IMG/VR virus record: IMGVR_UViG_2778261674_000013
Length of the DNA stretch: 6,212 bases
Strand: one strand, 5' to 3'
Source: a virus
Taxonomy: Duplodnaviria > Heunggongvirae > Uroviricota > Caudoviricetes
Positions 1-6,212 of this stretch are shown piece after piece; the first letter of the stretch is position 1; every line of letters begins with the position of its first letter. Below the pieces are notes generated by a model, which did not search any database, had not been told where the DNA came from, and saw only the letters and a program-made list of their open reading frames with translations. A program made the position numbers and the translations under genes.

Positions 1-3
1 GTG

Positions 4-24
4 GGATATTCTGAAAGAATATCC
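4..24. repeat. Perfect 9-bp inverted repeat GGATATTCT-gaa-AGAATATCC at the window edge
   Basis: Seen directly: 4-12 is the reverse complement of 16-24, with a 3-nt spacer. Function unknown (hairpin or dimeric binding site). Confidence 0.3.
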
Positions 25-252
25 ATAATGTGGAGAGAATCTATTGAAGTGCATGGTGCCGGGTGCCTCCCGGTGAATTCAGTACCAGCACCTGAATCCG
101 CGATTATCCCATATACCTACTCGCTGATTGCCCCTCCGCACAGGGGGATTCACCATGCCAGTTTCTTTTAACAAACTCCCCGCAAACCAGAGAACAGTCA
201 ACCGCCTGAATTGTGAAGTATTTAAAAATTTCTCCCGCTAACTGATACCCGG

Positions 253-339
253 CTAACAGTCTGGCGTTTTCTTTTTCAGCAACGGGAAAGCAACAACCAC
301 CACACCCGCCACCAGCACACCGTCAGCCAGCACTGACAT
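253..339 (-). CDS. Possible small hydrophobic peptide (28 aa, MSVLADGVLVAGVVVVAFPLLKKKTPDC)
   Basis: ATG at 339-337, stop at 255-253. Hydrophobic core followed by a KKK cluster, like a single-pass membrane peptide. No convincing Shine-Dalgarno; could be a chance ORF. Confidence 0.12.
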   Translation of the reverse strand: MSVLADGVLVAGVVVVAFPLLKKKTPDC

Positions 340-419
340 TATCCGGCTGCTGCAATGCCATTCACAAAAACAGTAAGCAATCACTTTTTACCGTAACAGG
401 TGATAATCCAGATATGTAT

Positions 420-773
420 CTACCCCAGATGAGTAATCCGAAGTTCATCCATACCACAGGTCCTGGCTATTCTGTTGTACTCCTGAACAAGAGCAAATAA
501 TTCTGAATTAGCAACCATGAACTCATCGCAAACCCTCTGTATAGCATCACTATTCAGAATAATAACGTCTCTTCCCGAAAGACGATCAGGAGTACAGAAC
601 AAAACTGTCAAACGGCTGAAGGCCTTTGCTCGTGCTGCATTGACTATATCAATACGCTGCCTAAGGATGAAACACCCCGACGCCTCATCAATATTCACTC
701 TACCCACACCATATGAATGATAAATATTTAATGCTGAAAAAACTATTAGACCGTATAACAAACACTCAATCAA
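420..773 (-). CDS. Hypothetical protein (up to 117 aa) in the cargo slot downstream of the phage tRNAs
   Basis: Longest ORF in this interval, same orientation as the late operon. The upstream-most start is TTG with no obvious RBS, and the first in-frame ATG is at residue 86, so the true start is uncertain. No recognisable motif. Confidence 0.3.
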   Translation of the reverse strand: MIECLLYGLIVFSALNIYHSYGVGRVNIDEASGCFILRQRIDIVNAARAKAFSRLTVLFCTPDRLSGRDVIILNSDAIQRVCDEFMVANSELFALVQEYNRIARTCGMDELRITHLG

Positions 774-883
774 TACTTAACAGAACTTTTATTTTTGACA
801 AACATATTATGTTTTCAACAATATCCTGAGCCAGGTATATTCCAGTATAAGGCTCTGCCGGAAGGAATCTGGAAGAATGAATA

Positions 884-960
884 TGGCGCGCTGTACTGGA
901 TTCGAACCAGTGACCGATTGCTTAGAAGGCAATTGCTCTGTCCGGCTGAGCTAACAACGC
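884..960 (-). tRNA. tRNA-Arg (anticodon UCU), phage-borne rare-codon tRNA
   Basis: Reverse complement folds as a 77-nt cloverleaf: acceptor GCGTTGT/ACAGCGC, D-stem GCTC/GAGC, anticodon stem ATTGC/GCAAT, loop CTTCTAA (U33, anticodon TCT, A37), T-arm ACTGG-TTCGAAT-CCAGT, discriminator G, encoded CCA. Resembles the argN/argO class of Stx-phage tRNAs. Confidence 0.85.
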
Positions 961-994
961 TGAATACCGATAATGGACCGCCATCGGGGACCCG

Positions 995-1003
995 CCCCCC
1001 CCC
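995..1003. repeat. C9 homopolymer (G9 on the transcribed minus strand) between the two tRNA genes
   Basis: Seen directly: nine consecutive C within gacccgCCCCCCCCCgcacc. Confidence 0.9.
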
Positions 1004-1064
1004 GCACCAACAACCCTGTTATCGTGTCGTCTGCTCTTCCTGATAAGCTCATGGCGGTTTGTGA

Positions 1065-1140
1065 TGGTGGCCCTTGCTGGATTTGAACCAGCGACCTGGC
1101 GATTATGAGTCGCTCGCTCTCACCACTGAGCTAAAGGACC
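1065..1140 (-). tRNA. tRNA-Ile2 (anticodon CAU, lysidine type; formally could be read as Met)
   Basis: Reverse complement GGTCCTTTAGCTCAGTGGTGAGAGCGAGCGACTCATAATCGCCAGGTCGCTGGTTCAAATCCAGCAAGGGCCACCA is a 76-nt cloverleaf with anticodon loop CTCATAA. From memory it is very close to E. coli ileX (tRNA-Ile2) and to the ileZ class of Stx-phage tRNAs. One A-C mismatch closes the anticodon stem. Confidence 0.8.
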
Positions 1141-1176
1141 GGGAGCAGAATAATAACGGTCCGTAATTAATTCCGC

Positions 1177-1203
1177 AATAAAAAACCCGCTCGGTGGCGG
1201 GTT
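1177..1203 (-). terminator. Rho-independent terminator, tR'-like (ends the short late leader transcript)
   Basis: Minus strand reads AACCCGC-CACCGA-GCGGGTT followed by TTTTTTATT. GC-rich stem plus U-tract, about 40 nt downstream of the putative late promoter. Confidence 0.6.
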
Positions 1204-1250
1204 GTAGAAACTCTTCTAACGTCAGGCATAAAACGCCCATCGTTATGACG

Positions 1251-1278
1251 AATTTACCACAGATTCCGGAAAAATCAA
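1251..1278 (-). promoter_or_regulatory. Putative Q-dependent late promoter (pR'-like) with extended -10
   Basis: Minus strand: -35 TTGATT (1278-1273), 16-nt spacer ending in TGG, -10 TAAATT (1256-1251). It lies immediately after the Q stop codon and before the terminator, matching the lambda Q-pR'-tR' layout. Confidence 0.5.
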
Positions 1279-1283
1279 CCTTG

Positions 1284-2105
1284 TTACCTAGTTACCTTTT
1301 TTAACTGCCGCTCAGCCCATGCTTCTTCAATATCAAACCGGGTCACCAGCGCATCATAGAATTTCTTAACTGTTTTTTCCCATGACGCGCGTGTTATCTG
1401 GTTTGTCACCTCGCATATAGCATTAAATGCCTCCGTTGATGGTAGTCTTTCATAGCCCCGACCACCACAACGCTGGCAGTCTCTGATAACAGGCATACCA
1501 CGTTTTACCGACTCTTCACGGTGAATGGCGACACCACGCCCACGGCAATCCTTACAGGCGGTGGAAACCTCACCCTTTCCGCCACACTCCGGACAGGCAA
1601 CTTTTACCACCTCCCTGACTTTTTTCCATTCTTCCCAGTAAGACGGATACACACCTTTCGTACACTTTGCCCATACCGGCGGCTTACCATCCGGATACTG
1701 GACCTTGTTTGTAAAAACTACGCTTTCAATAAATTTTTCCCCATAGCAACAAGGGCACTGCTTTTTACTCGCTGCGCTGCGGGCATAATCCTCAAAAGCG
1801 TACGAAGCCATAATGCGCATCACTAACGGTTTTATTTCTGCCGGAAGTTTTCTCAACGCCGCCACACGATCGCACCGACTGAGTGCATAATCTGCCAGTA
1901 ATTCTGTTGCCCGCGCCCTGTCATTCATACTGATGCCCATTTTCCCCAGGAACGCAGAAAACCCCATCTCAGCTCGATTCTGTGTCATGCCCTGCGCGGC
2001 CATCACATCAGTGATACTCAGCGCATCTTTTGACGTTGAGGCCGATGCATCGATCAGGCAAGGGGATTTTGGGGAGTAGTATTTCGGTAAATCTTCCAGT
2101 TTCAT
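1284..2105 (-). CDS. Late-gene antitermination protein Q-like (273 aa), zinc-ribbon rich
   Basis: ATG start overlaps the RusA stop (ATGA). Several Cys pairs (CPCC, CPECGG, CKDCRG, CQRCGG). N-terminus MKLEDLPKYYSPKSP and overall layout match what I recall of the Qin-type Q protein (QuuQ/YdfT family). Synteny rusA-Q-pR'-tR' supports the call. Confidence 0.7.
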   Translation of the reverse strand: MKLEDLPKYYSPKSPCLIDASASTSKDALSITDVMAAQGMTQNRAEMGFSAFLGKMGISMNDRARATELLADYALSRCDRVAALRKLPAEIKPLVMRIMASYAFEDYARSAASKKQCPCCYGEKFIESVVFTNKVQYPDGKPPVWAKCTKGVYPSYWEEWKKVREVVKVACPECGGKGEVSTACKDCRGRGVAIHREESVKRGMPVIRDCQRCGGRGYERLPSTEAFNAICEVTNQITRASWEKTVKKFYDALVTRFDIEEAWAERQLKKVTR

Positions 2106-2476
2106 TTTTTGACCTGCTCTTCATGCATTATGGGGTAAATCTTCACCCCCATACGTCCACCAGATACTGGCTGACCACGAACGATATTGATTTCATCAAA
2201 CTGCTCATCGTCCATTAACACTCCCGCATGCGTCAGCGCATCCAGCGGTGCTTTCAGGATATTGTCCAGGTCGCGACGACGCTTATCCGGTGGCTCTGCA
2301 ATCACCTTTATCGCCAGCCTTCCGGACAGGCTTAATTTCAGCCGCTGCTGGCGAACAATAAGCGCCACAGCCCGGCGATAACGCTTTCCCTCCTCCGAGA
2401 TAAAATATGTGCTGCCACGGCGTCGCCAGTAAGTGTTCACCGTCGGCGGGTAAGGTAAAACCAAATCTATGAGCAT
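2102..2476 (-). CDS. rusA: Holliday-junction resolvase RusA (crossover junction endodeoxyribonuclease), 124 aa
   Basis: Motifs LPYPPTVNTYWRRR and PDKRRRDLDNILKAPLDALTHAGVLMDDEQ match the RusA family. RBS AGAGGTGA precedes the ATG at 2476-2474. Confidence 0.85.
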   Translation of the reverse strand: MLIDLVLPYPPTVNTYWRRRGSTYFISEEGKRYRRAVALIVRQQRLKLSLSGRLAIKVIAEPPDKRRRDLDNILKAPLDALTHAGVLMDDEQFDEINIVRGQPVSGGRMGVKIYPIMHEEQVKK

Positions 2477-2488
2477 CAGTCACCTCTT

Positions 2489-3538
2489 TTACCCAAGCAC
2501 GCCAGTTGCAAAGGCGTGATCAAGAAAACGAAAGATTAAATCAACCTGAGAACCATGCTTTTCTTCGAACGCCAGAGGATCCGCATGAAGCTCGTTGTGA
2601 TGCTCCCGACACAGCGGTAGCGTGAAAATATCGTGAGATTTTGTCCCCATTCCGCCCTGACCATGACCAATCAGGTGATGGGGATCGTCGGCTGGCTTAC
2701 CACAACACGCACACGGCTGTGTCTTCACCCAGCGTGTGTATTTCTCGTTAACCCAGCGGCGACGTTTAGGTCGTTTCATGAAAGATTCCGGAGACTCAGG
2801 ATCAACGGCAATGCTGACCACCGTCTTTTCCTGTGGTGGGTTCTGTTGCTGGTGGGCGTGAGGCAGCGGCGCAAGATTTTTTGTGCGCTGTTTCAGTATG
2901 CTGGTGGCGGTCTGCTCTCCCGGTACGATGTCGCTTTCACGGTACATTGAGCGGATTTTTTCCGCACGCAACCCCAGCGAACGACGTAATACCGCTTCCG
3001 GTAGCGCGTCCGCCACCTGATTGCGGACCGCCCACCAGGATAATTCAGCCAGCGATAATTCCCGCTCCTGTGTGCCATTCATTGCGTGACGAATGACGTC
3101 AATCATCCATGCTGACAAGTTTTGGTGAGCAAGTTGCTCAAGTGATTCGGAGGTCTGGTCACGCAACTGGTTGTCGCAGTGCCAGCACAACACCATTGCG
3201 CCGGTACCATAACGGTGAATGACGGTTTCACTATGGTGATAATCGCCGTGTGGCCACTGGCAGGATTTAACATGGCGCAGTAACCAGTCAGACAATGCGC
3301 CAGCGCCACCAGCAGCACGAATCACTCGTTCGTCGCTGAAAAATGGCAGTAATGATTTATCCTCCGCCAGCGGCTGGCGAACGGCAGGAACGACCCCGGA
3401 CGGCAGATTACGCATGCTTTTCGGTTCCGGCTCCACCAGTACCCGGGTATTGTGGAATACCGGCATGGATTCACGGCCCGGCTTAACGATCACCAGCCCG
3501 AGTTCCGGTACCAGAACAGGTCGAAGTAATACCCGCAC
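2489..3538 (-). CDS. DUF968-family protein with C-terminal HNH-like Cys/His motif (YdfU-like), 349 aa
   Basis: C-terminus CACCGKPADDPHHLIGHGQGGMGTKSHDIFTLPLCREHHNELHA is typical of prophage DUF968 proteins. GTG start at 3538-3536 is preceded by GGAGGT at ideal spacing and sits one base after the upstream ORF's stop. Confidence 0.75.
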   Translation of the reverse strand: MRVLLRPVLVPELGLVIVKPGRESMPVFHNTRVLVEPEPKSMRNLPSGVVPAVRQPLAEDKSLLPFFSDERVIRAAGGAGALSDWLLRHVKSCQWPHGDYHHSETVIHRYGTGAMVLCWHCDNQLRDQTSESLEQLAHQNLSAWMIDVIRHAMNGTQERELSLAELSWWAVRNQVADALPEAVLRRSLGLRAEKIRSMYRESDIVPGEQTATSILKQRTKNLAPLPHAHQQQNPPQEKTVVSIAVDPESPESFMKRPKRRRWVNEKYTRWVKTQPCACCGKPADDPHHLIGHGQGGMGTKSHDIFTLPLCREHHNELHADPLAFEEKHGSQVDLIFRFLDHAFATGVLG

Positions 3539-3539
3539 G

Positions 3540-3818
3540 TTACCTCCAGATGCGTTGCTGGAATGTGCGGGACGGACGCGGTGGGCGTTCGGAGTAAGGA
3601 AGCCTGACGGAGATTATCCAGTGACGGTAGTCGAGGCTAAGGGCTTTTTTAACCTCGTATCCGCGCCTGCGGTAACACTGAATTATCCATTCAGCCTGCT
3701 CTTCAGTGCATGGTGGATGCTGGAACCAGTCCGATTTGAATGCATGAAAACGCCGTCCGCACCTACTGGCAAAGACGGCAGAATCATCAGAATTATGTAA
3801 TTTGGTATCGTGCGCCAT
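3540..3818 (-). CDS. Hypothetical phage protein (92 aa from the internal ATG; the ORF extends to 3929 for 129 aa)
   Basis: Open frame ends 1 nt before the DUF968 start. Neither candidate start has a strong RBS (GAGA before 3818). The N-terminal extension is W/Y/F-rich and may not be coding. Occupies the position Rem has in Qin; sequence not recognised. Confidence 0.4.
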   Translation of the reverse strand: MAHDTKLHNSDDSAVFASRCGRRFHAFKSDWFQHPPCTEEQAEWIIQCYRRRGYEVKKALSLDYRHWIISVRLPYSERPPRPSRTFQQRIWR

Positions 3819-4083
3819 CGGTTGTCTCTGCTGGCGCAGCAGGTGCCAGTTGTTCAGGCTGGCGTATAAAGTATAAATAAACTGGTTCCAGTGTAAAGCC
3901 CCTACATTAATGGAATAAAAGTCAAACAACAGATTGCTGGGATAAACACAACGCTTATTATTAAAAGCGATTAGATAAATTAAATTTTAATGTTATGCAA
4001 TTTTACCAGAACACCATAACATCTCGTTTGAAACCACCGAAACAACAACCATATCAATATTGATTATGTTAAAGTGAGTAAAT

Positions 4084-4170
4084 ATGGAAAACAACAAATC
4101 TGCACATTACGCTCCTTTTTTATCTGTGATACTTTTTGTTTTATGCTGTGTGTGGGCATTATTTTTATAA
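4084..4170 (+). CDS. Possible small hydrophobic peptide (28 aa, MENNKSAHYAPFLSVILFVLCCVWALFL), convergent with hok
   Basis: ATG with a weak GTGAG upstream. Single hydrophobic stretch. No homology known to me; may be a chance ORF in AT-rich spacer. Confidence 0.15.
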   Translation: MENNKSAHYAPFLSVILFVLCCVWALFL

Positions 4171-4179
4171 AAATATTTA

Positions 4180-4208
4180 CAGATAAAATAAACCCGCCGA
4201 AGCGGGTT
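4180..4208 (-). terminator. Rho-independent terminator downstream of hok (UUCG tetraloop hairpin)
   Basis: Minus strand reads AACCCGC-TTCG-GCGGGTT followed by TATTTTATCT. The stem is the same as in the tR'-like terminator. Confidence 0.6.
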
Positions 4209-4247
4209 AAGCGCGGGTGCGTTGAGGATGCCTGACACATCAGAGGC

Positions 4248-4269
4248 GGCGAGGGATTTCTCCCTCGCC
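4248..4269 (-). other. Perfect 9-bp stem / 4-nt loop hairpin immediately 3' of the hok stop codon (possible mRNA 3' fold-back or processing element)
   Basis: Seen directly: GGCGAGGGA-tttc-TCCCTCGCC. No U-tract follows on either strand. Confidence 0.4.
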
Positions 4270-4276
4270 AAGTCTC

Positions 4277-4432
4277 TTACTCCTCAGGTTCGTAGACTGT
4301 GAAGACAGCGACCTCCATCTGGCCGGTTCGGATTCGTACCTCGCAGAGGTCTTTCCTCGTTACCAGTGCCGTCACTATGACGGTTAAACAGATGACGATC
4401 AGGGCGATTAACATCGCCTTTTGCTGCTTCAT
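4277..4432 (-). CDS. hokD: Hok/Gef-family type I membrane toxin (51 aa), HokD/RelF-like
   Basis: Protein MKQQKAMLIALIVICLTVIVTALVTRKDLCEVRIRTGQMEVAVFTVYEPEE is near-identical to E. coli HokD (RelF) as I recall it. Strong RBS AAGGAGAA sits 7 nt before the ATG. The ORF also extends in frame to an ATG at 4489. Confidence 0.85.
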   Translation of the reverse strand: MKQQKAMLIALIVICLTVIVTALVTRKDLCEVRIRTGQMEVAVFTVYEPEE

Positions 4433-4939
4433 AGCCTGCTTCTCCTTGCCTTTCGGCACGTAAGAGGCTAACCTACATGTGCAAAGCATGAAATTGGCCT
4501 CAGATTAATGTTAAGCGTCTTGCCGGACGCGTAATGTTAACTGGGGCTTTTCTCTATCTGCCTTTGGTGTTCATGCCTGAGACAGATAGCCTCAAGCACC
4601 CGCAGCCATTGTACTTAACTCCCGTTACCTCGCCAATATAAAATCAATCAGAAAGGCGATCCATAAGGACAATAGCAAGACAATAAATTGCCATTACCCG
4701 CAATAGCCAGCGCACATTTGAGGACCAGCACGACAACTTTCTGTATCGGACGTACACCAGTCCTGATAAATACAAGGCGGTCTCATCAGTGATGAGATGC
4801 AACTATTGAGTACAGTTTCTCTGATTTTTCTGTAAAACATGGAACACAACAACTAAATATAACTAGCACTTCTTAAGATGTACAAATTCAGAGTTAAGAT
4901 AACGTAAGCAGTTTTCTCAAAACTAAGTGTAAATTTTTA

Positions 4940-5056
4940 ATGAAGAGCAGTGCTATGCTCCTGATCATAAATTCATTGTTTGGAACTGGAGGAATATTTA
5001 GGTTGCTGGAGTGGTTGGTTGAATTTAAATCAACTAAGACAAAAACCAACAATTAA
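4940..5056 (+). CDS. Possible small protein (38 aa, MKSSAMLLIINSLFGTGGIFRLLEWLVEFKSTKTKTNN) in AT-rich spacer
   Basis: Hydrophobic N-terminal half and lysine-rich tail, like a small membrane peptide. No clear RBS; AT-rich DNA generates such ORFs by chance. Confidence 0.1.
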   Translation: MKSSAMLLIINSLFGTGGIFRLLEWLVEFKSTKTKTNN

Positions 5057-5246
5057 AGATATGTGGTATATCAGAAAACAACTATCCGTATATTACTACA
5101 GAATTAAATACTAGCAACAAAGCTGTCTTTATTGATTTTTTATTTGATATCGAAACAAATAAACATAAAATAACCAACTAATTAAAACAGAGACTCGACA
5201 ATGAGCCTCTATCTATTGTAACAGCACTTCCAAATTTATTTTAGTA

Positions 5247-5266
5247 AGATAATAGCATGGGGCATA
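5247..5266. terminator. GC-rich hairpin (7-bp stem ATGGGGC/GCCCCAT, 6-nt loop) just 3' of the 266-aa ORF; possible bidirectional terminator
   Basis: Seen directly. Plus strand follows with CTTTTAAA; minus strand follows with GCTATTATCT. It stands out as a GC-rich stem in AT-rich DNA. Confidence 0.45.
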
Positions 5267-5279
5267 CTAGCCCCATCTT

Positions 5280-6080
5280 TTAAACCGTTTCATCAAGGAA
5301 ATACTTAGACGAATCATCCTGTTTCGGTTGATATGTTTTTTTTGCAGAATTAAGAACTCTTCTTAGTTCTTTTCTTAACTCAGGTAAACGCTCCTGAAGA
5401 GGGTTAGAACACCATTGTGAAGGCAACCCTCTTATAATAGCTTCGGAACAAAGCGGTGAAATAAGTTTTTCCATTTGATAATAGAAAGTTTTTGCTCGAC
5501 TTACACGCATTGTGATCCTTTTTATTACATCTCTTTCAGACTCAATTCTAGCACTCAGATCTCTTAATCTACTCCATACCTTAGCATCAGCAATATATGT
5601 ATCATAAAGCATACACTCTATAAACGTGAAATTACTAATAAGTTCTTTTGCAATATACCCCCCCAGCCGAGAAGGAATGAAACTTGATGAAGCTGTTGGA
5701 TCTCCGTGATTTACGGTGAACAAAAACCTTTTATTGCATAAATCAACGAGAACTCGATGCGTGAAAGAGTCACCTATACCAATTAACCTTAACTTTTCAG
5801 TTATTACCGAACCATCGATTTGTCTGAATCCGGGATCGCTTGCATACGAAACGATAACATTAAGAATGTACAGCCTCAATAATTGCATTTGTGTCACAGC
5901 TAAATTCGAATCAAACGGGTTCGCAATAGTCGACGTTGACTCGCTATAAGTCAACTCAGTACCCAGTAATATAGCTCTAAATGCCTCATGACGTGGAAGA
6001 AGATACCTTCCTTGTTCTCTGAAAATTTGTACTGCTTTACCTGGACTCGTATACCCTCTTTCTAAGAACTCACGAGTCAT
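5280..6080 (-). CDS. Uncharacterised protein (266 aa) in the AT-rich cargo segment; candidate accessory, defence or toxin gene
   Basis: Long ATG-initiated ORF with no internal alternative start for about 60 codons. By eye it is clearly more AT-rich than the adjacent prophage core (not computed). Protein has no motif I can assign confidently: no HExxH, no canonical Walker A, no HNH. Confidence 0.6.
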   Translation of the reverse strand: MTREFLERGYTSPGKAVQIFREQGRYLLPRHEAFRAILLGTELTYSESTSTIANPFDSNLAVTQMQLLRLYILNVIVSYASDPGFRQIDGSVITEKLRLIGIGDSFTHRVLVDLCNKRFLFTVNHGDPTASSSFIPSRLGGYIAKELISNFTFIECMLYDTYIADAKVWSRLRDLSARIESERDVIKRITMRVSRAKTFYYQMEKLISPLCSEAIIRGLPSQWCSNPLQERLPELRKELRRVLNSAKKTYQPKQDDSSKYFLDETV

Positions 6081-6101
6081 ACGTAATGCTGATGAATCCC
6101 C

Positions 6102-6125
6102 TAATGATTTTTATCAAAATCATTA
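6102..6125. promoter_or_regulatory. Perfect 10-bp inverted repeat TAATGATTTT-tatc-AAAATCATTA, 22-45 bp upstream of the 266-aa ORF start; candidate operator
   Basis: Seen directly. The AT-rich palindrome is a poor terminator stem, so a dimeric regulator site is more plausible. Confidence 0.3.
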
Positions 6126-6139
6126 AGTTAAGGTAGATA

Positions 6140-6200
6140 CACATCTTGTCATATGATCAAATGGTTTCGCGAAAAATCAATAATCAGACAACAAGATGTG
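6140..6200. repeat. Nested palindrome: 10-bp arms CACATCTTGT / ACAAGATGTG around a central TTTCGCGAAA palindrome, same centre
   Basis: Seen directly: 6140-6149 is the reverse complement of 6191-6200, and the central 10-bp palindrome at 6165-6174 shares the centre near 6169/6170. Confidence 0.4.
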
Positions 6201-6212
6201 CGAACTCGATAT

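What the first reader, a model, noticed from the sequence alone, without database searches (positions are those of the whole stretch)
4180..4560. Stand-alone hok toxin without relBE; candidate Sok antisense RNA not yet located
The Hok reading frame is intact with a strong RBS, and it has its own terminator plus a perfect hairpin right after the stop. Type I hok loci normally need an antisense RNA (Sok) and an overlapping mok frame. Here the upstream ORF is in frame with hok rather than overlapping it out of frame: the ATG at 4489 is preceded by GAGG and would add 19 residues. Either this hok is regulated differently (for example by read-through transcription from the cargo unit) or an unannotated Sok lies on the plus strand in about 4440-4560.
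Basis: partly seen in the sequence, partly recalled or inferred. Interest (0 to 1): 0.5.

Follow-up and report, generated by a model that had tools for sequence, protein, structure and literature searches.

The report
Complete prophage hok/mok/sok toxin-antitoxin locus
This is an ordinary, complete copy of the well-known hok/mok/sok RNA-controlled toxin-antitoxin module in an E. coli prophage; the "missing" Sok antisense RNA lies on the plus strand at about 4481-4551, and the in-frame upstream reading frame is the normal mok gene.

Summary
The sequence observations hold. There is an intact 51-codon hok (4277-4432, minus), an in-frame 19-codon extension from the ATG at 4489 behind GAGG, a perfect hairpin after the stop, a terminator, and no relBE.

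The locus is not a stand-alone toxin. It is a full hok/mok/sok module spanning about 4186-4636:
- It is about 93% identical to the annotated mokW-hokW-sokW locus of Stx phage 933W/Sp5, which has been validated experimentally (PMC8621323).
- In that locus, and in K-12 mokC/hokC, mok is also in frame with hok.
- Sok maps to plus strand 4481-4551. It matches SokW at 64 of 71 bases, and the 45 bases upstream that hold the promoter are identical.
- Folding reproduces the published R1 mechanism: 5'-3' tac/fbi closure in the full-length mRNA, then a switch to tac/ucb and mok-SD/dcb in the 3'-trimmed form.
- A 27-locus alignment from Escherichia to Photorhabdus shows compensatory changes that support these pairings.

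K-12 hokD (relF) is the truncated derivative, and this window carries the intact form at the same prophage position. This is already known and of low interest. Expression and toxicity of this copy were not tested.

The parts
4608..4636 (-). hok mRNA promoter (TTGGCG, 17-nt spacer, TACAAT)
   Evidence: Found by the promoter scan. It ends 7 nt before the conserved 5' end GGGUGC. 933W has TTTGCG and TAGAAT at the aligned position.
4186..4601 (-). Full-length hok mRNA, about 410-416 nt (5' end inferred)
   Evidence: Homology with Photorhabdus, Pantoea and Kluyvera loci begins within 2 nt of 4601. MFE is -177.6 kcal/mol, z = -7.4. In 27 loci, 85% of cells are paired against about 40% in slid controls, and 52 pairs show compensatory change.
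4590..4601 (-). tac (translational activator) element at the mRNA 5' end, GGGUGCUUGAGG
   Evidence: It pairs with fbi in the full-length fold, with ucb in the truncated fold, and with the adjacent downstream sequence in the nascent 30-nt fold at -16.9 kcal/mol.
4541..4549 (-). ucb (anti-SD), AAGCCCCAG
   Evidence: It sequesters the mok SD in the full-length fold and pairs with tac in the truncated fold.
4498..4501 (-). mok Shine-Dalgarno sequence, GAGG
   Evidence: It lies 8 nt before the ATG at 4489. GAGG is invariant in all 27 loci.
4277..4489 (-). mok reading frame, 70 aa, in frame with hok and sharing its stop codon
   Evidence: Listed in the ORF table. It is 64/70 identical to MokW of phage 933W. 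An ATG lies at the aligned position in 24 of 27 loci and within 2 nt of it in the other three.
4460..4469 (-). dcb (downstream complementary box), AGCCUCUUAC
   Evidence: It pairs with the mok SD region in the truncated-mRNA fold to form the Sok-target hairpin. The block is nearly invariant in A2.
4277..4432 (-). hok toxin gene, 51 aa, with SD AAGGAG at 4447..4442
   Evidence: Pfam HOK_GEF, E = 3e-21. 49/51 identical to K-12 HokD and 46/51 to HokW. PGAP names the identical gene in strain GF3-3 'HokD'.
4248..4269 (-). Perfect stem-loop after the hok stop, probably the protective 3' end of the processed mRNA
   Evidence: Helix 20 is 91% paired, with compensatory change at 5 of 9 pairs. The role is inferred from the R1 study PMC9841398.
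4215..4227 (-). fbi (fold-back inhibition) element, CCUCAACGCACCC
   Evidence: It pairs with tac in the MFE fold. Helices 1 and 2 are 89-91% paired. Seven Photorhabdus loci change U-A to C-G at the same pair.
4191..4208 (-). Intrinsic terminator of the hok mRNA
   Evidence: Found by the terminator scan: 7-bp stem followed by TATTTTAT.
4446..4474 (+). Sok promoter (TTGCCT, 17-nt spacer, TAACCT)
   Evidence: The 45 nt upstream of the Sok start are 100% identical to the sequence upstream of the annotated sokW of 933W. Mutating the sokW promoter abolished antitoxin activity in PMC8621323. The hexamers are kept across 27 loci as TTGCCT or TTGACC and, in 22 of them, TAACCT or TAATCT.
4481..4551 (+). 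Sok antisense RNA, about 71 nt (U-tract runs to about 4557): 15-nt single-stranded 5' tail plus a terminator hairpin
   Evidence: Mapped from the annotated sokW and from K-12 sokC. 64/71 identical to SokW. The 77-nt version folds at -30.2 kcal/mol, z = -5.0. The hairpin is more stable on this strand than on its complement in 27 of 27 loci.

Best explanation
Window 4186-4636 is a complete type I toxin-antitoxin module of the hok/mok/sok family. It sits in a Qin/Rac-like lambdoid prophage of E. coli and is orthologous to mokW-hokW-sokW of Stx phages 933W/Sp5.

Mechanism, inferred from the R1 paradigm and reproduced here in silico:
1. A promoter at 4636..4608 makes a stable hok mRNA of about 410 nt.
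2. While the transcript is nascent, the 5' tac sequence is held in a local hairpin.
3. In the full-length RNA, tac (4601..4590) pairs with fbi (4227..4215) near the 3' end, and ucb (4549..4541) occludes the mok Shine-Dalgarno sequence (4501..4498). Neither ribosomes nor Sok can then bind.
4. Slow 3' trimming back to the stem-loop at 4269..4248 removes fbi.
5. The RNA then refolds into tac/ucb plus a mok-SD/dcb hairpin that exposes the mok start region.
6. Sok, a short-lived RNA of about 71 nt made from the opposite strand (promoter 4446-4474, RNA 4481-4551), pairs through its single-stranded 5' tail with this region. That blocks mok translation and leads to RNase III cleavage.
7. If Sok supply stops, ribosomes translate mok (4489..4277). 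Because hok translation is coupled to mok, the membrane toxin Hok (4432..4277) is produced.

The in-frame mok is one of the normal arrangements in the family.

Shown here: homology, the positions of the elements, the predicted folds and covariation.
Inferred: transcription, 3' processing, toxicity, and the biological role, which may be prophage retention or help with lysis on induction.
For: - Rfam RF01794 matches 4601..4427 over its full length at 115.7 bits.
- The 461-nt query 4180-4640 is 93.3% identical, over 90% of its length, to the annotated mokW/hokW/sokW of 933W and VT2-Sakai.
- Sok is 64/71 identical to SokW, and all 7 differences lie in the 5' tail. The promoter region is identical.
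- SokW/HokW were shown to act as antitoxin and toxin, dependent on RNase III and Hfq (PMC8621323).
- The tac/fbi pairing appears in the MFE fold (z = -7.4).
- The truncated RNA switches to tac/ucb plus SD/dcb, and the nascent transcript forms the metastable hairpin. This is the model summarised in PMC9841398.
- In the 27-locus alignment, 85% of cells are paired against about 40% in slid controls, with 52 compensatory pairs against 20-29. tac/fbi changes from U-A to C-G in Photorhabdus.
- The Sok-strand hairpin is more stable than its complement in 27 of 27 loci.
- In-frame mok is annotated in K-12 (mokC/hokC) and in 933W.
Against: - There are no expression or toxicity data for this copy.
- The Sok -10 hexamer TAACCT matches the consensus at only 3 of 6 positions, and the generic promoter scan did not report it.
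- Chromosomal hok loci tested earlier (hokA, hokB, hokC) did not mediate post-segregational killing, according to the introduction of bioRxiv 10.1101/2025.08.07.668861.
- Hok carries two substitutions relative to K-12 HokD (T39M and A46V) whose effect is unknown.
- The structure tested for covariation was derived from the window sequence itself, which inflates the 'cells paired' measure.
Confidence: 0.9

Rival explanations
1. The locus is structurally intact but functionally silent, a decaying chromosomal remnant like most K-12 hok loci, so the question of its regulation is moot.
For: - K-12 hokA, hokC and hokE are inactivated by insertion elements, and the remaining K-12 hok locus other than hokB by genomic rearrangement; hokD is not named individually (PMC12214031).
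- Chromosomal loci that were tested failed to give post-segregational killing.
- Hok has two private substitutions, T39M and A46V.
- An IS10 has already disrupted the neighbouring gene, which shows decay in this prophage.
Against: - No element is missing or interrupted.
- The Sok promoter and hairpin are identical to those of the functional SokW.
- tac/fbi and the other helices are intact.
- 42 of 45 diverse Hok homologues tested were toxic (bioRxiv 10.1101/2025.08.07.668861).
- Faridani et al. state that hok/sok loci in ECOR strains are active (PMC1635323).
Confidence: 0.08
2. One reading: hok has no Sok and is controlled differently, for example by read-through transcription from the upstream cargo gene.
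For: PGAP annotates only hokD here, with no sok or mok. The Sok promoter falls below the generic scan threshold.
Against: - hok has its own promoter, and cross-genus homology begins within 2 nt of the predicted 5' end.
- The cargo gene is followed by a terminator-like hairpin at 5276..5257 and is itself broken by IS10.
- A Sok homologue with an identical promoter is present.
- The Sok strand shows a hairpin-stability bias in 27 of 27 loci.
Confidence: 0.02

Closest known systems
mokW-hokW-sokW of Stx2 phages 933W / Sp5 (VT2-Sakai), GenBank AF125520.1 and AP000422.1; functional study PMC8621323
   Same: - Same architecture: a 70-aa in-frame mok, a 51-aa hok and a 71-nt Sok that starts 9 nt inside mok.
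- 93.3% DNA identity over about 417 nt.
- The Sok hairpin, including the 18-nt extension, the Sok promoter and fbi are identical.
- Both are carried by lambdoid (pro)phages.
   Different: - Seven substitutions in the Sok 5' tail and mok start region, matched automatically because Sok is encoded in cis.
- Hok differs at 5 residues in the C-terminal part.
- The window has a canonical terminator, and 933W diverges after fbi.
- The prophage position differs. Here the locus lies just upstream of the DUF968-rusA-Q block, while in 933W it lies near the right end of the genome.
hokD (relF) of the relBEF operon, Qin prophage, E. coli K-12
   Same: - Hok protein 49/51 identical.
- Same 3' UTR with the stem-loop, fbi and terminator.
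- Same prophage neighbourhood, with the ydfU/DUF968 gene and the Q antiterminator downstream.
   Different: In K-12, homology stops at the hok SD. The leader with tac, ucb, mok and sok is replaced by relB-relE. The window carries the complete form, and K-12 hokD is the rearranged, truncated form.
hokC/mokC/sokC (gef) of E. coli K-12
   Same: - The leader is highly similar.
- mok is in frame (mokC 16751..16960 and hokC 16751..16903).
- The annotated SokC overlaps the mok start in the same way.
   Different: - SokC is 59 nt and lacks the 18-nt hairpin extension.
- The K-12 locus has IS186 just downstream of hokC, so fbi is absent.
- hokC is a core-chromosome locus, not in a prophage.
hok/mok/sok (parB) of plasmid R1
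   Same: The same set of regulatory elements and the same predicted conformational switch (model from PMC9841398).
   Different: - In R1, mok is out of frame with hok (from my own knowledge; R1 was not retrieved here). Seven of the 27 sampled loci also have the +1 arrangement.
- R1 Hok is only 44% identical to HokW (PMC8621323).
- R1 is a plasmid and uses the system for post-segregational killing.

Membership tests
hok/mok/sok type I toxin-antitoxin family | Small Hok/Gef-type membrane toxin ORF | tested here: met
   Pfam PF01848 HOK_GEF at 75.1 bits against a cut-off of 22.
hok/mok/sok type I toxin-antitoxin family | mok reading frame with its own SD, starting upstream of hok and running across the hok start | tested here: met
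   GAGG, 8 nt, then ATG at 4489; a 70-codon ORF over hok. An ATG lies at the aligned position in 24 of 27 loci and within 2 nt in the other three. The frame is 0 in 17 loci and +1 in 7, and the ORF is short in 3.
hok/mok/sok type I toxin-antitoxin family | Cis-encoded Sok antisense RNA gene (promoter, 5' tail, terminator hairpin) complementary to the mok translation initiation region | tested here: met
   Positional and sequence homology to the annotated sokW and sokC. Fold z = -5. Strand bias in 27 of 27 loci. The transcript itself was not observed.
hok/mok/sok type I toxin-antitoxin family | Long-range tac/fbi pairing between the 5' and 3' ends of the full-length mRNA | tested here: met
   Present in the MFE fold. 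89-91% paired across 27 loci, with a compensatory U-A to C-G change.
hok/mok/sok type I toxin-antitoxin family | Conformational switch after 3' trimming (ucb/SD changes to tac/ucb plus SD/dcb), and a metastable 5' hairpin in the nascent RNA | tested here: met
   Predicted folds of RNAs ending at 4232, 4236 or 4240 switch as in the R1 model. The first 30 nt form the metastable hairpin. This is in silico evidence only.
hok/mok/sok type I toxin-antitoxin family | Leader matches the curated RNA family model | tested here: met
   RF01794 at 115.7 bits against a gathering score of 59, over the full length. The model is in hok-sense orientation.
hok/mok/sok type I toxin-antitoxin family | Hok is toxic, Sok neutralises it, and the mRNA is processed at its 3' end | not testable with these tools
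   Shown only for the orthologue hokW-sokW (PMC8621323).
hokD/relF as defined in K-12 (third gene of the relBEF operon) | hok directly downstream of relB-relE, with no mok, sok or tac leader | tested here: not met
   No relBE in the window. The leader is present, whereas K-12 has the relE 3' end at that position. The PGAP name 'HokD' reflects protein identity only.

The most novel reading that the evidence does not exclude
Because mok is in frame here, every ribosome that starts at the mok AUG makes a 70-aa protein containing all of Hok plus a basic 19-residue N-terminal extension. This Mok-Hok fusion could be a second toxin isoform with its own properties, rather than only a by-product of translational coupling. 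The prophage copy could use it to time lysis on induction, as proposed for hokW. The data do not exclude this. However, the frame varies across homologues (17 in frame, 7 at +1, 3 short), which argues that only ribosome transit is under selection.
Probability: 0.07. Interest if true: 0.3.

Novelty: already known. Interest (0 to 1): 0.08.

Why it matters
Scientifically it matters little. The module, its Sok RNA and its in-frame mok were annotated in phage 933W in GenBank record AF125520.1 and tested functionally in 2021.

The practical value is for annotation:
- PGAP labels this gene 'HokD' and annotates neither mok nor sok, which invites the misreading 'orphan toxin'.
- The Rfam 'sok' model hits the hok-sense strand, so anyone taking its strand at face value would place Sok on the wrong strand.

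The window also shows the complete form of the locus at the prophage position where K-12 carries the truncated relBE-hokD arrangement.

Tried and rejected
- **Generic sigma-70 scan for the Sok promoter.** It did not report the promoter because TAACCT matches only 3 of 6 positions. The promoter was accepted instead on its 100% identity to the sequence upstream of sokW.
- **Rfam hit taken as the location of Sok.** Rejected. The hit is on the hok strand, and the K-12 control shows the model is in hok-sense orientation and spans the whole leader.
- **Read-through from the cargo gene.** Rejected. hok has its own promoter, the cargo gene has a terminator-like site, and the cargo gene is broken by IS10.
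- **Identity of the upstream cargo protein.** The window holds its 266-aa C-terminal part, and the intact protein in GF3-3 is 834 aa. Pfam and PADLOC gave only sub-threshold hits (NACHT, HSDR_N_2, mREase_II), so no assignment was made.
- **Source strain.** I searched for a complete E. coli genome carrying the same IS10 junction and found none.
- **Hits in non-enterobacterial assemblies.** Records labelled Veillonella, Xanthomonas, Acinetobacter, Haemophilus and Scatousia matched at 91-97% identity. I treated them as probable contamination and left them out of the covariation set, except MAG_L012.
- **Not run, judged unnecessary for a known family:** large protein database searches, structure prediction, and a custom covariance model.

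Full report
**Context**

The window is the late-regulatory region of a Qin/Rac-like lambdoid prophage of E. coli. All its genes are on the minus strand:
- tRNA-Arg(UCU) at 884-960 and a CAU-anticodon tRNA at 1065-1140
- a Q antiterminator at 1284-2105
- RusA at 2102-2476
- a DUF968/YdfU protein at 2489-3538
- a small ORF at 3540-3929
- hok
- an AT-rich cargo gene whose stop is at 5280

Positions 1-6096 are 99.7% identical to E. coli GF3-3. From about 6089 an IS10 end follows, marked by an RNA-OUT hit at 6134-6203.

**Observation**

- hok runs 4432..4277 (51 aa; Pfam HOK_GEF E = 3e-21), behind AAGGAG.
- The stop codon is followed by a perfect 9-bp hairpin at 4269..4248 and by a canonical terminator at 4208..4191.
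- An ATG at 4489 sits 8 nt behind GAGG (4501..4498) and 57 nt before the hok ATG. It therefore opens a 70-codon frame that includes hok.
- There is no relBE.

**What it is**

The region 4601..4427 matches Rfam RF01794 over the full model length at 115.7 bits. The 571 bases around hok recur in 4941 of 5426 complete E. coli genomes, and in 2742 of them over at least 80% of the length.

In the phage collection, the 461-nt query 4180-4640 is 93.3% identical, over 90% of its length, to the mokW-hokW-sokW locus of Stx phages 933W and VT2-Sakai/Sp5. The 933W record annotates three features:
- mokW at 58460..58672
- hokW at 58460..58615, which shares the stop codon with mokW and is therefore in frame
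- sokW at 58664..58734 on the opposite strand, 71 nt long, starting 9 nt inside mokW

These are the same lengths (213 and 156 nt) and the same geometry as in the window. Transferring the coordinates puts Sok at plus strand 4481-4551:
- 64 of 71 bases are identical to SokW.
- All seven differences lie in the single-stranded 5' tail.
- The 45 bases upstream, containing TTGCCT, a 17-nt spacer and TAACCT (4446-4474), are 100% identical.

Mapping from the annotated K-12 sokC gives the same start. The RNA folds into a 15-nt tail plus a long terminator hairpin. The 77-nt version has an energy of -30.2 kcal/mol and z = -5.0.

Takada et al. showed that sokW neutralises HokW, that this depends on the sokW promoter, RNase III and Hfq, and that sokW RNA has 71 nt of complementarity to the hokW leader (PMC8621323).

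**The in-frame mok**

K-12 annotates mokC (16751..16960) and hokC (16751..16903) with a shared stop codon. mokB and hokB are out of frame.

I aligned 27 homologous loci from Escherichia, Kluyvera, Pseudocitrobacter, Pantoea, Erwinia and Photorhabdus. An ATG lies at the aligned mok start in 24 of them and within 2 nt of it in the other three. The distance to the hok ATG varies:

| Distance from mok ATG to hok ATG | Arrangement | Loci |
|---|---|---|
| 57 nt | in frame | 17 |
| 58 nt | +1 frame | 7 |
| 56 nt | short ORF | 3 |

The frame is therefore free to vary within the family. An in-frame mok is the commonest arrangement in this sample and is not a sign of unusual regulation.

**Mechanism**

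The published R1 model is summarised in PMC9841398. In it, a tac/fbi stem closes the full-length mRNA while ucb sequesters the mok SD. After 3' trimming, tac pairs with ucb and the mok SD pairs with dcb, which opens the RNA to ribosomes and to Sok. A metastable 5' hairpin prevents translation during transcription.

Unconstrained folding of the window RNA reproduces each step:
1. The full-length RNA (4601..4186) pairs GGGUGCUUGAGG with CCUCAACGCACCC. Its energy is -177.6 kcal/mol, z = -7.4.
2. RNAs ending at 4232, 4236 or 4240 switch to tac/ucb. They also form a hairpin that joins the mok SD (GAGGC) to dcb (GCCUC).
3. The first 30 nt form the metastable hairpin at -16.9 kcal/mol.

Across the 27 loci, the full-length structure is paired in 85% of cells, against 38-43% when the partners are slid. 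Compensatory changes occur at 52 pairs, against 20-29 in the slid controls. In the tac/fbi helix, seven Photorhabdus loci change U-A to C-G. One caveat applies: the structure tested was derived from the window sequence, which favours the 'paired' measure.

The Sok hairpin relies on G-U pairs that become A-C mismatches on the hok strand. It is more stable on the Sok strand in 27 of 27 loci, which is evidence for selection on the antisense transcript.

It is 91% paired, with compensatory change at 5 of 9 pairs.

**Relation to hokD**

The Hok protein is 49/51 identical to K-12 HokD, and the locus occupies the same prophage position. In K-12, however, homology begins only at the hok SD, and the leader is replaced by the 3' end of relE. 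PMC12214031 attributes the inactivation of the K-12 hok loci other than hokB to insertion elements (hokA, hokC, hokE) or to genomic rearrangements that removed components of the canonical system. It does not name hokD individually, but the alignment here fits the rearrangement class. The window therefore carries the complete form, and the relBE-linked hokD is the derived, truncated one.

**Rivals**

A silent remnant cannot be excluded without experiments. Earlier tests of chromosomal hok loci found no post-segregational killing, and this Hok has two private substitutions. Against this, no element is damaged, and the Sok promoter and hairpin are identical to those of a functional orthologue.

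Read-through control from the cargo gene is unnecessary. hok has its own promoter, at 4636..4608. Cross-genus homology begins within 2 nt of the inferred 5' end. The cargo gene ends in a terminator-like hairpin at 5276..5257 and is itself broken by IS10.

**Verdict**

The novelty is nil and the interest is low. The main lessons concern annotation. PGAP calls only 'hokD' here. The Rfam 'sok' model is in hok-sense orientation: in K-12 it hits the strand opposite to the annotated sokC and sokB.

Noticed in passing
window 6089-6212; compare L001 10131-12635: An IS10 end (terminal repeat CTGATGAATCCCCTAATGATTTT, RNA-OUT hit at 6134-6203, 98.8 bits) interrupts a cargo gene. In E. coli GF3-3 that gene encodes an intact 834-aa protein with a P-loop (GTVGAGKT). 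The window keeps only its C-terminal 266 codons (5280-6080). None of the 5426 complete E. coli genomes has this junction.
   Followed up: partly
L001 10131-12635 (window 5280-6088 is its 3' part): The 834-aa AT-rich cargo protein next to hok has only sub-threshold matches: NACHT, the type I restriction HSDR_N_2 domain, and PADLOC mREase_II. It may be an uncharacterised nuclease-NTPase defence gene carried as a prophage moron.
   Followed up: partly
window 4427-4601; L002 902-1054; L004 1067-1218: Rfam RF01794, named 'sok antitoxin', is built in the hok-sense orientation and covers the whole 157-nt hok leader up to the hok AUG. In K-12 it hits the strand opposite to the annotated sokC and sokB. 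Automatic annotation from this model would put Sok on the wrong strand and make it too long.
   Followed up: yes
window 4515-4532 (plus strand): The Sok terminator hairpin carries an extra 18-nt sub-hairpin (GCGTC-TTGCCG-GACGC) that K-12 SokC and the Pantoea, Erwinia and Photorhabdus loci lack. It is present in the Escherichia, Kluyvera and Pseudocitrobacter loci and in SokW, with compensatory changes. This makes Sok 71-77 nt instead of about 58 nt.
   Followed up: partly
window 4289-4295 (minus strand): The Tyr47 codon of hok lies in CUACGAA, which contains the UACG motif of the tRNA deaminase TadA. A-to-I editing that recodes this Tyr to Cys has been reported for hokC, hokD and hokE (PMC12214031). 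The motif is conserved in the 27-locus alignment.
   Followed up: partly
window 1-187 (minus strand): Strong match to the Rfam sRNA family STnc100 (108.9 bits), cut off by the window edge. It lies downstream of the prophage tRNA genes.
   Followed up: no
window 884-960, 1065-1140 and 1177-1283 (minus strand): Two prophage tRNA genes lie just downstream of Q: Arg-UCU and a CAU anticodon that PGAP calls Ile. Between Q and the tRNAs there is a strong terminator hairpin (AACCCGCCACCGAGCGGGTTTTTTATT) under a weak Trp_leader hit. This is probably the Q-controlled late promoter and terminator region.
   Followed up: no
L012, L013, L034, L041, L045; phage record PP818812.1: hok loci 91-97% identical to the E. 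coli one appear in assemblies labelled Veillonella parvula, Xanthomonas pisi, Acinetobacter idrijaensis, Candidatus Scatousia and Haemophilus, and in an 'Actinobacillus phage'. Most are on short contigs. E. coli contamination or mislabelling is the likely cause.
   Followed up: no
L024 (Photorhabdus temperata) 1411, 2040, 2658; L043 (Pseudocitrobacter) 838 and 1356: In these genomes hok/sok loci occur as tandem arrays with a spacing of about 520-630 nt. This fits the clustered Photorhabdus loci mentioned in PMC1635323.
   Followed up: no
window 3540-3929 (minus strand): A 129-codon ORF lies between the DUF968 gene and hok and has no Pfam or PADLOC match. PGAP annotates only a 92-aa hypothetical protein here. 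K-12 and phage Rac have rem at the corresponding position.
   Followed up: no
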